DNA from: Eledone cirrhosa
Lineage: Eukaryota
NCBI GenBank assembly: GCA_964016885.1
Contig: OZ024743.1
Coordinates: 16,182,001-16,246,000 of the forward strand
Direction: 5' to 3'
Length of the DNA stretch: 64,000 bases
Shown: piece by piece, positions 4,742-35,075 of the stretch
How positions within the stretch are numbered: position 1 is the stretch's first letter
How the letters are laid out: each line of letters starts with the position of its first letter
Position numbers and translations under genes: made by a program
The notes under the pieces: generated by a model
The model's database searches: none
The model's input: only the letters and a program-made list of their open reading frames with translations
What the model was told of the DNA's origin: nothing

Positions 4742-5134
4742 ATACCTTCCTGCCAGATTGTTGAACTTATATACTTACCTTATGTATATTAACGGCTGAG
4801 TAGCCCAATTTGCATATCGAGTGGGTTAATCGGCCGGGTGCACCGAAAACGATAAACGGAATAAATGAAACAAAATTTCATTTCCCACTCTTAGTACGGC
4901 TGTTACTTAAATATAAGTATGTACACGTACATACATATATGTATACAGACGTACAGTAGTATGTATATGTATATATACATACATACATACATACACACAT
5001 ACATATATGTACGTATGGATTCACCGAACATTCATTATAATGCTCGGTGTGTTTGTAAACAAACATCCCGTATTAAGTCGTAGTGTCTAGCAACCATCGT
5101 TGCTCGTTTGTTCAACACTGACAAAGGAAGGTAT

Positions 5135-5177
5135 ACGTTGCTGACGATAGCTCATAAGCTTGAAACTAGTACAGCGT
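5135..5177 (+). ncRNA. Minimal type I hammerhead ribozyme
   Basis: acgttg-CTGACGA-tagct cata agctt-GAAA-ctag-TA-cagcgt; differs from the 4699 copy only at variable N7 and in loop II. Confidence 0.85.
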
Positions 5178-5791
5178 TCCTTTGTCAGTGTTGAACAAAC
5201 GAGCAACGATGGTTGCTAGACACTACGGCTTAATACGGGATATTTGTTTACAAACACATCGAGCATTATAATAAATGTTCGGTGAATCCATACGTACATA
5301 TATATATGTGTGCATGTATGTATATATATATATACATACTACTGTACGTCTGTATACATATATGTATGTACGTGTACATACTTATATTTAAGTAACAGCC
5401 GTACTAAGAGTGAGAAATGATATTTCGTTTCATTTTTTCCGTGTATATATATGATGGAGTCGATCGACAAGATCCCAGACATCATTCGCTTAATTAGTGG
5501 GATGGAGCTCGTCAAATACTAATACTATCTGCAGATCACAAACCCAGGCAGAAGGAGCAACGTGAAATAAAATATCTTGCTGTCCGTGAATCAAAATCAA
5601 AATCTGACAATTGCAAATCCAATTCTCTAACCACTCAGCCACACAACTTCCTATATGTACATACATAGCTATCATTCTCTCTTCCTCCTTCTCTAACATA
5701 CACTTGTATATGGTAGCAAGCTCCTATAAAGTGTCTGTTTACCGAATGTAAATTGCAAACCATTGGTTGACTTGACATTATATTAAATAAC

Positions 5792-5978
5792 GGTGTTGGA
5801 TTGGCAGTATCGTTAGAGGGTCGGACGCCATGCTTTATAGCAAAGTGTTACGGCCCTTTATAGTCTGAGTTCAAATCCCCCTGAGGTTAACTTTGCCTTT
5901 CATCCTTAAGGGGTCGATAGAATAAAGTACCAGTAATACACTGGCATAATTGCTGGCCTTGTGCCAAAAGTAGAAACA
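5792..5978 (+). mobile_element. tRNA-derived SINE (family A, ATT-tailed)
   Basis: A box tggcagtatcgttag, B box gagttcaaatccc, central ctttgcctttcatcc..ggggtcgata..aagtaccag; 15-bp TSD attatattaaataac (5777-5791/5979-5993); appears inserted into an older SINE. Confidence 0.92.
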
Positions 5979-6161
5979 ATTATATTAAATAACATGCACC
6001 CTTGTTATGCAATGGGATAAAACCCAGAAACTTGTGTTTGAAAAGGAAACTATTTTACTCCACAGACATGCCTAGATTCATGGCATAAGACTTTGTAAAT
6101 CATGAAATTTCAGAGAGCAATTTCTGTCACAAAACACAATTTTCAATTTGTCTTTTTACAG

Positions 6162-6250
6162 GTAGCAAATATTTGAATATTCCTCCCAACCAATACATAG
6201 TTAAGCTAATGAGGGAACATGTATATGGTGACTTATCCACATTTTACTGA
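6162..6250 (+). CDS. Possible terminal coding exon of an unidentified host gene
   Basis: Good acceptor tttgtctttttacag followed by an open frame (G)SKYLNIPPNQYIVKLMREHVYGDLSTFY-stop; no homology recognised. Confidence 0.25.
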
Positions 6251-30797: not shown

Positions 30798-31239
30798 TGA
30801 AGATGTTAGTGATAACAATCAAGTAGAAAATGGTTATAAAATAATGATGATAATGATCCTGATGTAGTATTGGCAGTAGTGATATATATATATGGAGATT
30901 TGCTTCCATTCTGATTAAATTTTTGGATCTTTAACAAGTATCCCATTCATTCTCTAGAACAATGCCTAGCACTTTTGTAGAGAATTCAATACTAGTGGGA
31001 TAAATGAGATAAAGAAACTGCAACACAGGTATCTTAAAATTGGATCCTGGATCCGAATGCTGGCAACAAAGTATACCCAGCTAAAGGCCCTCAAATGCCA
31101 ACTTGTAACATTGAACAAGTAAACAAATGAAGGCTTACATCTCAGTTCAATTATACGAGGTTGTTTAAGCACACTAACATGACACATCATTTGGAGCATA
31201 CTTGATTCATTTTTTTCCCAGTCTTTACAGGTCTTGTGC

Positions 31240-31540
31240 AGTTAAGGCTCATGTTTCACTGCCATGAAGCATTGCAGTGTGCATGCAGGCATATATGGAG
31301 TGCCAGTTTTAAACTCCTTGGTGATGGCCTCAAGGACAATGATAAATAGGAATGGACTGAAGACTGAGCCCTGGTGGACGGCCACCTGCACTTCAAATTC
31401 TTTTCTCTACTCACTTCCAATACTCAACCTGCTGGCTGTTCCACCAAATTACAAAGTGTGGGCCCTGTGAAAGGCCTTCTCCATATCTACAAGAACCATA
31501 TACAATGGCTTACTCATAGCTACATACCACTCTTGTAGTT
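31240..31540 (-). mobile_element. RTE RT internal fragment
   Basis: LYMVLVDMEKAF..VAVHQGSVFSPFLFIIVLEAIT on the reverse strand. Confidence 0.8.
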
Positions 31541-32145
31541 GTTTCACCAGAAAGAGGTCGTTGGTTATAACCCTGCATTGCTTAAATCCAAAGTAACTAC
31601 CTCTGCCTGGTATAAATCATCTCTGAATTATCAATTATATACTTCTTGTATTTTTATTCCATTAGAAGTCACCCTATACATTCAGTTGCTCAGAGATTTA
31701 CCATCTCATGCTTCTGCTGAATACAGTTTCTGAACTAAGGACTATATGGTTATGTAGAACAAATGGGCACTTCCTCTAATAGTATATTTCGAGAAATTTT
31801 GCCAAGTTGAAACCATCACACCCAAGATTTACTCACTAGAAGATTTGAACTTTGCACGGCAGGATAACAAATTATTTGTTAATAATAAACTGCTCCTGCT
31901 GTTTAAAACAATAATATGCACATATTACTGTGTGATTTGGAGTAGCAAGTTTTAAGTGTCACTAGACCACCTGTGACCCATTGGGTCACGTTCCCTTTAA
32001 CATATTTTTAAGATCATGTTCACTTACAAATAATTTTTTAATAATTAAAATTAAAATCTTAATATAATAATAATTAAAATTTTTATATAAAAGGAAACTG
32101 GAAGGCCCATATATATATATATATATATACGTGTGTGTATGTATA

Positions 32146-32948
32146 TCATCATCATCATCATCATCAACGTTTAACGTCCGTGTTCCACGCTTGCATGGGT
32201 TTGGACGGGGGTTTTCCCACTTGAGGCAAGAGTGATTATCTTGCTCGCATAGGACTATCTGGTGGGTTTTCTACAGCTGGATGCCCTTCCTAACACCAAC
32301 CACATTTACAGTGTGGGGCTGGGAGGATTTTACCGTGTTGCCTACACGGCCACATTACAGCGTGGACTGTCTGGCAGGTTTTCTACAGCTGGATGCCCTT
32401 CCTAACACCAACCACATTTACAGTGTGGGGCTGGGAGGATTTTACCGTGTTGCCTACACGGCCACATTACAGCGTGGACTGTCTGGCAGGTTTTCTACAG
32501 CTGGATGCCCTTCCTAACACCAACCACATTTACAGTGTGGGGCTGGGAGGATTTTACCGTGTTGCCTAAACGGCCACATTACAGCGTGAACTGGTGTGTT
32601 TTTTTGACGTGACACTACACGATCTCATTTGTTTCGGCCTGGATGTTGTGGAACCAACATAACTTTACATTGAAAGGGGCGGTGTGGATGGGGTGGGGGT
32701 GGTGGGACGGGGGTGTATTTTGTTAGAGATGCCTACTGACTGTAGTAGGTTTTACTTTGTATTTAGGTAAGGCGGGTCTTCTCTATTACTGAGTACCGCC
32801 AAAGGTCTCGGTCCAGTGACATTGTCTTGGTGAGGTGTAAGTGTGTGCGGTCGGAATTTATCAGCTCGTCCCAGGTTTTTCTGGGTCTGCCTATTCCGTG
32901 GCTACCGTCTATCTTTATTGCCCTGCACTTTGTTATACAGCTATCGTC
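32146..32948 (-). mobile_element. RTE LINE 3' end with internal 3x112-bp tandem duplication
   Basis: (GAT)n tail; coding tail GRPRKTWDE; ctacagctgg recurs at 32271, 32383 and 32495. Confidence 0.9.
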
Positions 32949-34877
32949 CTTATATATATATATTATATATATATTATATATATCGTCCGTATATATATAT
33001 TTAAATGTGTGTGTGTGTGTGTGTATATATATACATATGTGGGTATCTGTGATCTATATACACTGGTCATAGACACATACGCATACACACACACACATAT
33101 ATATATATACAAACACTCACATATATTTATACACAACACCATAATCAGCTTACTCTCTCTTCCTTTCTCCTTCTCCTTCTCTGTCTCTCTTTCAATCTAC
33201 TCTCTCACAACCACTATCTCCGTCTCACTATCTTTCTCTCTCTCTCTGTTTATGAAGGTACCCGGAAAAACCCATATCTCGGGAACCCGTATTCCGATTT
33301 ACGCTAAACTTGTTTTATTCCATTTGTATTCCCATTTCAGGGGCAACTTCCCTTCAAAGTATTTTCCCTTTATATGCCCTTTTCGCTGTATTACATTACA
33401 GAGAAGCAAGGAAGCAAGCAATCAGAGAGTTTTAGTAGTACATAGATAGATAACTAAAAGAACACAATGCATCAGTAGTGCCAGGATACAAAACTGAAAC
33501 TTAAGCTGCATGCCTAATCTGATTTCCTCTTTGGCAACCAAGGCAATTGGGATGTTCCAAAAATCGAAGTTGCTAAAGTTGCCTGATGTTTCTAATGAGA
33601 AGCATGTGTATGATGTAAGCCAAAATATATGGACAAATCGCTAAATTTATTGCTTTGTAATGTATTGTTTCTAACGTGCTAGAACATACTATACTAGTTC
33701 AATTTGTTGCTTCAGTACATACCATAAATGTTGAGGTTTTGGAAGAAATGTATGCCACTAATAACATTTATTGCAATTGTAAACTTTTGATAGGGTCATT
33801 TACCTTCAGTTGTTGACCGATTGAGCTGACAGTTGGAGATTCTTTCAGTTTTTTAATTTCTTGTTTGTTTCTTTTGGTCTCTTAATTGAACAGTATGCTA
33901 TGAAAAACACCAACTGTATCCATCATCATCATCAATAACATCATCACCTCCATTATCACCACCAATAAACCCATCAACCAGCAACATCAACAAAAAAATT
34001 ACAAAAACCGCATTTACAACAATTCTGATGGATCATGTCTTTAGTCCATACAGGCACTGAATTATATGTTGACAAGTTTTAAATGAATGACTTAGTTGCA
34101 TTTAATCCTAAAGCTTGAATGAAAATTGTGAATAAGAAGAAATCATATGAAAGTTGCATACAAGTTGTCATAAAACTTAACTCTGGTTATCCTATGCAAA
34201 CATAAAAAGAAAAGAAAAGAGAATTATATTGATAACGTCTATGACAAGATGTTAATGTATTGATTTTCTTGTTGTTTCAAGGCTGCAATAACAGTTTCGT
34301 ACCAATAATGAATTAAATATAAAAAAAGCAAAGCAAAATGTAACATAAACAATTAAATAACGCTGAACTCAGAATAATATAAACTAAGGGGAATATAAAA
34401 CTATCTGTAACTCAGAGAAGCTGTTAATCTCCTCTTTAGTGGGGAGGGAGAAAACAAGATAGTAAAATTTAAGTACTGAAGAAAGTTTTGCAAATTAACA
34501 GCTGAAAAGAAATAGAATACAGATAACCTGATTCAAATAGACTTTTTTTTTGCAAATAGCTATGAAGTTGGGTATTTCTAAATAGAGGAAATATAATGAT
34601 ATTTCTTTCATTACATTCATTCAAAAATACATTTACAATTTAAATGATGTGAGGTGATGACATCTGGGAATAGATGTGAGCTTTGGTTATTGACTAAGGA
34701 GAAACATAACTTCTTGCTTTCAAGCTTATACACTAATACATATTTAATTTAGGCAGCAGTTTCACCTAATTTCTTATTATGTATTCTATTTATTATTATG
34801 TATTATATTTCATTGTAACTAAATTATATATATATATATATATATATATATATATATATATATATATATATATATAT

Positions 34878-35075
34878 ATAGGAAAAGGTTCAGGACCCTG
34901 ACGGCAGAGCTCAAGCCGTTTCGACGGCTATTTCTGGACTAAGCTTGAGCTCTACCGTCGGGGTCCTGAACCTTTTCCTATTACCCACTCTACTACACAA
35001 ACTATCGAGTACTTTGGTGCGTAATGGTCCACCTCGTTCCTTACCACTTCGTTCCTTACCACACTTCCTTCGTTA
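34878..35075. mobile_element. TA-flanked fold-back element (same family as 11190-11356)
   Basis: Arms 34878-34916 and 34943-34981; body is a reverse match to 11190-11270. Confidence 0.78.

What the first reader, a model, noticed from the sequence alone, without database searches (positions are those of the whole stretch)
4856..35075. Recurrent rule: divergent inverted duplications whose arm starts at a hammerhead cleavage site
Seen at up to four loci from three sequence families (5129/5176, 24728/24779, 11309/11320, 34916/34943). One arm starts at or just after the (putative) NUH site and the opposite arm retains upstream ribozyme sequence. Known: PLEs often carry inverted pLTR segments at their 5' ends. 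Inference: RT reaches the ribozyme-generated 5' end of the RNA and then folds back or switches template via stem microhomology, so self-cleavage defines the inversion point. The resulting long hairpins could also be dsRNA substrates for ADAR or Dicer; this is speculative.
Basis: inference. Interest (0 to 1): 0.8.

Follow-up and report, generated by a model that had tools for sequence, protein, structure and literature searches.

The report
Head-to-head Penelope insertions, not cut-site defined
The four mirror-image repeats are head-to-head insertions of Penelope-type jumping RNAs whose turning points are not concentrated at the ribozyme cut site; they likely arise when both strands of the target DNA prime copying of the same RNA at two neighbouring start sites and the two copies are then joined.

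Summary
The four head-to-head duplications are real, and all three families carry a hammerhead, but the proposed rule fails. Arm ends within ±10 nt of the cut site occur at chance level: family A 6 vs 7.5 expected, B 8 vs 10.5. Family C has 3 ends at 0..+4 vs 5.3. Paired arms nearly always start at two different 3' ends (one with the Penelope 'tail', one without), and in about half or more of the pairs the tail-less arm reaches further 5'. One folded-back cDNA cannot make that; twin priming of uncleaved or re-ligated RNA fits best (0.65). Family C, the 3' end of a GIY-YIG-bearing Penelope-like element, has a true hotspot 40 nt upstream of the cut, inside stem II: 3,844 exact copies begin there, often after an untemplated G. 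It is likely a capped transcription start. The architecture is known; the mechanistic clue is useful.

The parts
4493..5129 (-). Family A (424-bp retrozyme-like unit) left arm, about 1.5 units; outer end at the tail-less 3' end (-206), inner end at +6 from H17
4695..4751 (-). Family A type I hammerhead inside the left arm, H17 at 4705, read through without a break
   Evidence: motif scan; fold
5125..5129 (.). Locus 1 junction: 5-nt microhomology from the outer extension of stem I (+6..+10 with -46..-42)
   Evidence: same junction at 5 of 16 local junctions genome-wide with different flanks
5125..5446 (+). Family A right arm from -46 with intact hammerhead (core 5141-5147, H17 5171) and the 59-nt tail (about 5388-5446)
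24555..24716 (-). Family B (316-bp retrozyme-like unit) left arm with the 30-nt tail at its outer end; inner end about +19
24708..24716 (.). Locus 2 junction: 9-nt microhomology in the native extended stem I (+19..+27 with -63..-55)
   Evidence: recurs at 7 of 16 independent local junctions
24708..25170 (+). Family B right arm, about 1.45 units, tail-less; intact hammerhead (core 24738-24744, H17 24771); second unit has internal deletions
11194..11312 (-). Family C (3' end of a Penelope-like element) tail-bearing arm, inner end -19, cut site at 11293
11307..11356 (+). Family C tail-less arm from -29; 6-nt microhomology 11307-11312; cut site at 11336; 5' half of the ribozyme core absent
34878..34942 (-). 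Family C tail-less arm reaching -42, the family's 5'-end hotspot; cut site at 34900
34943..35075 (+). Family C tail-bearing arm from -16; cut site at 34959; about 80-nt tail ending in (TA)n

Best explanation
These are head-to-head insertions of Penelope-type elements whose junctions are not enriched at the hammerhead cut site, and they are likely made by twin priming: each nicked target strand would prime reverse transcription of the same uncleaved or re-ligated RNA at one of two neighbouring start sites, and the two cDNAs would then be joined. One arm therefore carries the 'tail' and the other does not. Each cDNA stops independently. The two 3' ends can anneal only where the RNA is self-complementary, so ribozyme stems supply occasional recurrent junctions such as those at loci 1 and 2. 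Families A and B are likely copied from circular or multimeric RNA, read through the cut site. In family C most cDNAs run off a 5' end 40 nt upstream of the cut, likely a capped transcription start inside stem II; that end lacks the 5' half of the catalytic core. Shown: anatomy, end distributions, tail asymmetry, recurrence of stem junctions, and the -40 hotspot. Inferred: twin priming, circular template, transcription start and cap.
For: Tail pairing: 24 of 26 classifiable A pairs and 16 of 18 B pairs are tail plus tail-less (p about 1e-8 vs 50%); in 55 of 56 tail-anchored C pairs the partner lacks the tail. The tail-less arm is longer in 17 of 24 A (one is a local duplicate), 9 of 16 B and 26 of 56 C pairs; the tail arm is longer in 7, 7 and 19. 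No excess at the cut site; 55 of 158 A passes run through a whole unit. Both arms belong to the same C subfamily in 19 of 19 classifiable pairs. Cross-family head-to-head joins are rare but exist: 2 of 300 junctions, plus L268 and L270 seen by eye. C hotspot: 35 ends at -42..-38, 0.18 per nt vs 0.013; 3,844 exact copies start at -40. In separate sequencing data, 9 of 9 listed opposite-strand joints have one side at -45..-37, and depth steps up there. The untemplated base before -40 is G 12, C 5, A 2. In vitro, a Penelope protein nicks and extends both strands, starts at two sites bounding the tail, is predicted to be a dimer, and mostly uses uncleaved RNA (PMC11167929).
Against: All evidence is from fixed, mostly aged genomic copies. 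Asymmetric deletion at palindrome centres after insertion could shorten either arm and mimic independent stops. Subfamily concordance could reflect subfamilies active at different times rather than one RNA. The own partner was the closest match in only 9 of 23 pairs. Of non-T bases before -40, 59 of 86 can be read as templated by the other arm, and C is nearly as common as G in the first 100 genome hits (G 50, C 44, A 6). The TATA-like spacing holds for one subfamily group only. One junction has an arm ending exactly at +1 (L456, 1 of 16) and one is ambiguous (L467), so cleaved templates may be used occasionally.
Confidence: 0.65

Rival explanations
1. Ribozyme self-cleavage defines the inversion point: reverse transcriptase runs off the cleaved 5' end and folds back or switches template.
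For: Locus 1 has an arm ending at +6. L456 ends at +1. Unchecked notes on other genomes report over-use or mild use of the cut site.
Against: No excess within ±10 nt in A (6 vs 7.5) or B (8 vs 10.5), nor at 0..+4 in C (3 vs 5.3). 3 of 68 arm ends of 34 3'-anchored A junctions lie within ±10, vs 3.4 expected. The ribozyme is retained across the scissile bond at all four loci.
Confidence: 0.04
2. Self-priming fold-back, either of one cDNA or of an antisense template (Arkhipova et al. 2013), makes a hairpin; later resolution and asymmetric deletions at the palindrome centre give the varied junctions and the single tail.
For: Microhomology at 30 of 56 C junctions; recurrent stem junctions; shared private variants between arms (L199, L311); proposed in print for rotifer Penelope (PMC3846280 Discussion).
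Against: A fold-back predicts that the loop sits on one fixed arm type, but it sits on either. 26 of 56 C junctions have no microhomology or carry extra bases. Cross-family joins exist. A G before the -40 end points to a sense, capped template. Tail-less arms can exceed tail arms by hundreds of bases (L130, L399).
Confidence: 0.2
3. Twin priming holds, but the family C -40 hotspot is a structure-induced reverse-transcriptase stop or a processing site, not a capped transcription start.
For: The site lies within the long stem II insert; much of the G excess can be templated; weaker stops near ribozyme stems are seen in A (-36..-19, 14 vs 5.3) and B (+5..+28, 22 vs 12.2), both windows chosen after seeing the data.
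Against: The stop is single-nucleotide sharp and sits at the same position in two subfamilies with different local sequence. Untemplated G is in excess (12 of 19, p 0.007 against equal shares). A TATA-like element lies 29-31 nt upstream in one subfamily group.
Confidence: 0.25
4. A single ancestral hairpin was amplified as a MITE-like unit.
For: Five A copies and seven B copies share identical junctions.
Against: Those copies differ in flanks, arm length and which arm has the tail; junctions elsewhere are almost all different.
Confidence: 0.01

Closest known systems
Insertion architecture of endonuclease-bearing Penelope-like elements (inverted 5'-truncated copy, optional tail; PMC8557442 passages, PMC3846280 passages and Discussion)
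   Same: Head-to-head inverted copy, tail at one end only, (TA)n targets, palindrome or microhomology at the inverted junction, hammerhead in the terminal repeat
   Different: Tails here are 30, 59 and about 80 nt (30-40 in print). The papers ascribe the junction to self-priming and the tail to endonuclease resolution, whereas arm-length asymmetry here favours two primings
Animal non-LTR retrozymes (PMC7229834 passages; bioRxiv 10.64898/2026.07.22.740005 first part and passages)
   Same: Families A and B: non-coding tandem units of 424 and 316 bp, each with a type I hammerhead
   Different: Here they show the Penelope tail and inverted-arm signature at their ends; the word 'tail' does not occur in that preprint. 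Unit A is slightly longer than the 170-400 nt reported. Circular RNA not shown here
LINE-1 twin priming with microhomology joining and cap-derived extra G (PMC11702581 passages)
   Same: Second priming from the opposite target strand, inverted segment, microhomology at the junction, extra G at complete 5' ends
   Different: In L1 the second primer lands internally on the RNA; here both starts are fixed and 30-80 nt apart, so the arms overlap and form a palindrome
Hammerheads of Penelope-like elements, including the U3-A8 core variant of Schistosoma Cercyon (PMC4209133, parts 1-2)
   Same: Conserved G10.1-C11.1 pair, unpaired bases at the start of stem II, U3-A8 core in family C and in a B subfamily, palindromic loop 3 in A and B
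   Different: Family C has a 5-bp stem III and a roughly 55-nt stem II arm, so it folds as a monomer in the prediction, and the commonest genomic copies begin inside stem II

Membership tests
EN+ Penelope-like element insertion | Inverted 5'-truncated copy adjoining head-to-head | tested here: met
   C: 56 of 69 tail-anchored loci; A: 34 curated junctions in 59 loci, 22 loci without one
EN+ Penelope-like element insertion | Optional tail at one end only | tested here: met
   A 24 of 26, B 16 of 18, C 55 of 56
EN+ Penelope-like element insertion | Insertion into AT-rich or (TA)n targets | tested here: met
   135 of 152 C tails are followed by TA repeats; A and B flanks
EN+ Penelope-like element (family C) | C-terminal GIY-YIG endonuclease upstream of the terminal repeat | tested here: inconclusive
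   Pfam GIY-YIG E 0.0016, 19.1 bits, below the 22.6 cut-off, in L245; no hit for the matching broken pieces of L223
EN+ Penelope-like element (family C) | Telomerase-like reverse transcriptase in the same ORF; clade (Neptune) by phylogeny | not tested
   Fetched loci reach only about 1.5 kb upstream; the Neptune-like Cys linker is recalled, not tested
Type I hammerhead ribozyme | Core C3/U3-UGAN-G8/A8-A, GAAA, NUH with three stems | tested here: met
   A, B: and subfamily variation. C: 95% of cells paired, 3 pairs with two-sided changes in 13 copies; lowest-energy fold is the three-way junction, z -2.3. Rfam found no hammerhead in the window
Type I hammerhead ribozyme | Self-cleavage | not testable with these tools
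   Needs an in vitro assay
Non-LTR retrozyme (families A, B) | Tandem non-coding units each with a type I hammerhead | tested here: met
   Arrays of 424-426 bp and 303-320 bp
Non-LTR retrozyme (families A, B) | Expression as circular RNA | not testable with these tools
   Needs RNA reads
MITE (single amplified hairpin) | Identical junction and ends in all copies | tested here: not met

The most novel reading that the evidence does not exclude
The long-unexplained inverted pseudo-LTR and one-sided tail of Penelope elements are the direct product of twin priming: a dimeric RT-endonuclease primes both target strands at the two start sites of one RNA. Retrozymes are mobilised by this same reaction. 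In family C a capped transcript starts inside the hammerhead and so disarms it, and priming next to the cap has littered the genome with thousands of 60-140-bp palindromes.
Probability: 0.4. Interest if true: 0.7.

Novelty: new member of a known kind. Interest (0 to 1): 0.45.

Why it matters
How Penelope elements form their inverted repeats and tails, and whether their hammerheads act in transposition, are open questions (PMC3846280 Discussion; PMC11167929). These high-copy families give a genomic read-out: cleaved linear RNA is at most a minor template, arm geometry argues against simple fold-back, and a two-strand, two-site priming model can be tested in the existing in vitro system. The tail signature on retrozyme-like arrays is sequence-level evidence that Penelope proteins mobilise them.

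Tried and rejected
Rfam scan of the window found only hairpin (miRNA-type) matches below threshold and no hammerhead family. A first look at family C from best-scoring hits suggested a MITE-like fixed hairpin or a ribozyme-cut 5' end; both were rejected once longer copies showed the full ribozyme and 2,508 exact copies reaching -52. One search used references that themselves held inversions and was replaced. One search was too noisy and was replaced. One search returned no units and was redone. No RNA holder was listed for family A, so editing, small RNAs, circular RNA and RNA 5' ends were not examined. Laying DNA contigs on locus 1 listed 15 of 30 joints, none at 0..+10 (weak). No conserved sequence continuing past the family C tail was found apart from one duplicated locus pair, so the start of its ORF is unknown. 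Pfam gave no hit for the ORF fragment at 1648-2469, and it did not align with one family C ORF piece. Target-site duplications were not scored because most ends lie in (TA)n. Paper searches for twin priming or head-to-head priming in Penelope returned only PMC3846280 as relevant; subscription papers are not covered. 'Octopus' as a search word was my guess from recall; the organism was not determined.
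Full report
Setting. The window is G000:C4:16182001-16246000 of a 3.0-Gb, microsatellite-rich animal genome. All positions below are relative to the hammerhead cut site (H17 = 0; +1 is the first base of the 3' product).

Observation. All four inverted duplications exist. Locus 1 (family A): minus arm 4493-5129, plus arm 5125-5446. There is a type I hammerhead with a palindromic loop 3 on each strand (H17 at 4705 and 5171). The arms overlap by 5 nt (+6..+10 with -46..-42), the outer extension of stem I. Locus 2 (family B): H17 at 24771. 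Longer copies show the ribozyme: a U3-A8 core, a G10.1-C11.1 pair, a 9-bp stem II with a long insert, a 5-bp stem III and a 4-5-bp stem I. In 13 copies 95.1% of cells pair and 3 pairs change on both sides; 1 of 500 shuffles reached that pairing, though relatedness inflates such tests. The lowest-energy fold of one copy is the three-way junction (z -2.3). The cut site is then at 11336 and 34959, inside both arms, and the junctions are at -19/-29 and -42/-16. Thus only 1 of 4 loci has an arm end within 10 nt of the cut, and all four keep sequence across the scissile bond, which a cleaved 3' product could not template.

Families. A is a non-coding 424-bp tandem unit (11,705 exact hits of a 24-mer). 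B is a unit of about 316 bp (2,424 hits). Both fit animal non-LTR retrozymes (PMC7229834, passages; bioRxiv 10.64898/2026.07.22.740005, first part and passages). C is the 3' end of a longer element with a broken ORF about 0.7 kb upstream; its GIY-YIG match is weak (E 0.0016, below cut-off). Each family has two fixed 3' ends, 59, 30 and about 80 nt apart, in (TA)n. This is the Penelope 'tail' (PMC8557442, passages).

I sampled copies in genome order along contig C1 through exact anchors. For A, 70 of the first 100 3'-anchor hits or their clusters were fetched, plus 30 loci and 20 regions for an anchor at +13. For B and C, 70 loci each were fetched. Arm 5' ends were called by anchored local alignment, with an error of a few bases. 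A: 158 passes, 55 running through a whole unit (positions there need +1). After dropping 4 locally duplicated passes and 2 that ended within the anchor, 152 passes gave 98 ends: 0 at 0..+4 (1.8 expected), 4 at 0..+10 (3.9) and 6 within ±10 (7.5). In a hand-curated list of 34 head-to-head junctions from 59 loci (microsatellite artefacts and one duplicate of each L131 pair removed), 3 of 68 ends lay within ±10, against 3.4 expected. B: 87 arms (2 overlapping loci, 2 recounts and 1 divergent copy dropped) gave 1 end at 0..+4 (2.5) and 8 within ±10 (10.5). C: 69 loci (1 duplicate dropped) gave 125 ends, 3 at 0..+4 (5.3 at background). Cleaved linear RNA is therefore at most a minor template. Windows chosen afterwards show mild excesses near the ribozyme stems: A -36..-19, 14 vs 5.3; B +5..+28, 22 vs 12.2.

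What does recur. Genome-wide, 16 junctions join the A arm near +6 to the core within 30 nt. Five are the exact window junction (0.19 expected), one ends at +1, and most of the others read through the cut. For B, 7 of 16 independent junctions use the same stem overlap as the window (0.32 expected; 2 duplicate hits counted once). These copies have different flanks and arm lengths, and the tail can be on either arm, so they are repeated events rather than one amplified hairpin. They are a tiny share of all insertions.

The real hotspot. In C, 57 of 125 ends lie at -47..-34 and 35 at -42..-38 (0.18 per nt vs 0.013 at -33..-5); only 8 pass -47. 3,844 exact copies have a non-native base before -40, while 2,508 reach -52 (shorter pattern, so not strictly comparable). 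Contigs from a public run of a matching organism, possibly the source sample, show depth rising more than tenfold at about -40, and all 9 listed opposite-strand joints have one side at -45..-37. The base before -40 is G 50, C 44, A 6 in the first 100 hits. Of 86 non-T cases in my loci, 59 can be templated by the other arm, 8 are single-base spacers or native variants, and 19 are untemplated: G 12, C 5, A 2 (p 0.007). An extra G marks capped full-length L1 ends (PMC11702581, passage). The site resembles an initiator (recalled consensus), with a TATA-like run 29-31 nt upstream in one subfamily group. Penelope terminal repeats are reported to hold promoters (PMC2377424 and PMC3846280, passages). 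I infer a capped start inside stem II (about 0.6).

Mechanism of the inversion. Pairs are tail plus tail-less in 24 of 26 classifiable A pairs (43 scored, 17 unclassifiable), 16 of 18 B pairs (31 scored) and 55 of 56 C pairs (tail-anchored). One cDNA folding back would always leave the tail arm as the longer one. Instead the tail-less arm is longer in 17 of 24, 9 of 16 and 26 of 56 pairs, including window loci 2, 3 and 4. Both arms are of the same C subfamily in 19 of 19 classifiable pairs and are closer within than between loci (0.12 vs 0.19), though the own partner is closest in only 9 of 23. Cross-family joins are 2 of 300, with two more seen by eye. A purified Penelope protein nicks and extends both strands, starts at two sites that bound the tail, is predicted to be dimeric, and does not need ribozyme cleavage (PMC11167929, parts 1-2). 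Twin priming on one RNA followed by end joining explains all of this (0.65). The published alternative is self-priming on an antisense template (PMC3846280, Discussion read in full). With later asymmetric deletions at palindrome centres it cannot be excluded from fixed copies (0.2).

Comparison and novelty. Head-to-head copies, palindromic junctions, tails and opposite-strand hammerhead pairs are all described for Penelope-like elements (PMC8557442, PMC3846280, PMC4209133 parts 1-2). I found no paper proposing twin priming for them in three searches, which do not cover subscription journals. Supplements were not read; Fig. S2 of PMC11167929 and the preprint's closed supplements may bear on this. 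Unchecked notes on other genomes report both over-use and only mild use of cut sites, and pile-ups upstream of the core; I did not test them, and families may differ.

Verdict. What remains is a new, high-copy example of known Penelope and retrozyme insertions that yields a testable twin-priming model and a probable transcription start inside a variant hammerhead. Interest 0.45.

Noticed in passing
window 1648-3290: Fragment of a 273-aa ORF that looks like a Penelope-type RT/endonuclease C-terminus (recalled motifs; no Pfam hit), followed by a degenerate hammerhead-like motif with H17 near 3141 and a (TA)n end.
   Followed up: partly
window 3458-3485: A roughly 25-bp single-arm stump of family C on the minus strand inside a (TA)n tract, ending at about -2 from the cut site.
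   Followed up: partly
window 27877-27999: Another near-perfect inverted repeat of about 55-bp arms with a short AT-rich loop, unrelated to families A-C.
   Followed up: no
L291-L297, L304, L307, L309 (family B): Family B subfamilies differ widely in all ribozyme stems, and some carry the U3-A8 core while others keep C3-G8.
   Followed up: partly
L188, L241, L308, L395 (family C): Some copies have a mismatched C3/A8 core, which may be inactive.
   Followed up: no
L084, L090, L268, L270, L067: Cross-family chimeras: A-B and C-A head-to-head joins, and a B 3' end fused to a C hairpin.
   Followed up: partly
L161, L162, L174, L178: Untemplated poly(A)/poly(T) runs at family C junctions next to the -40 end, suggesting slippage or terminal addition by the RT.
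   Followed up: no
G000:C20:28312952-28317734; G000:C1:9968642-9972365; G000:C1:53354840-53370390: Long, nearly identical family A arrays, two of them with a single central inversion.
   Followed up: partly
family C, -29..-14 from the cut site: An alternative hairpin that puts the core GAAA in a loop can form in both subfamilies and provides the microhomology at locus 3; it could hold the ribozyme inactive.
   Followed up: no
window 47799-60981: Several LINE-type RT/endonuclease ORF fragments on both strands.
   Followed up: no
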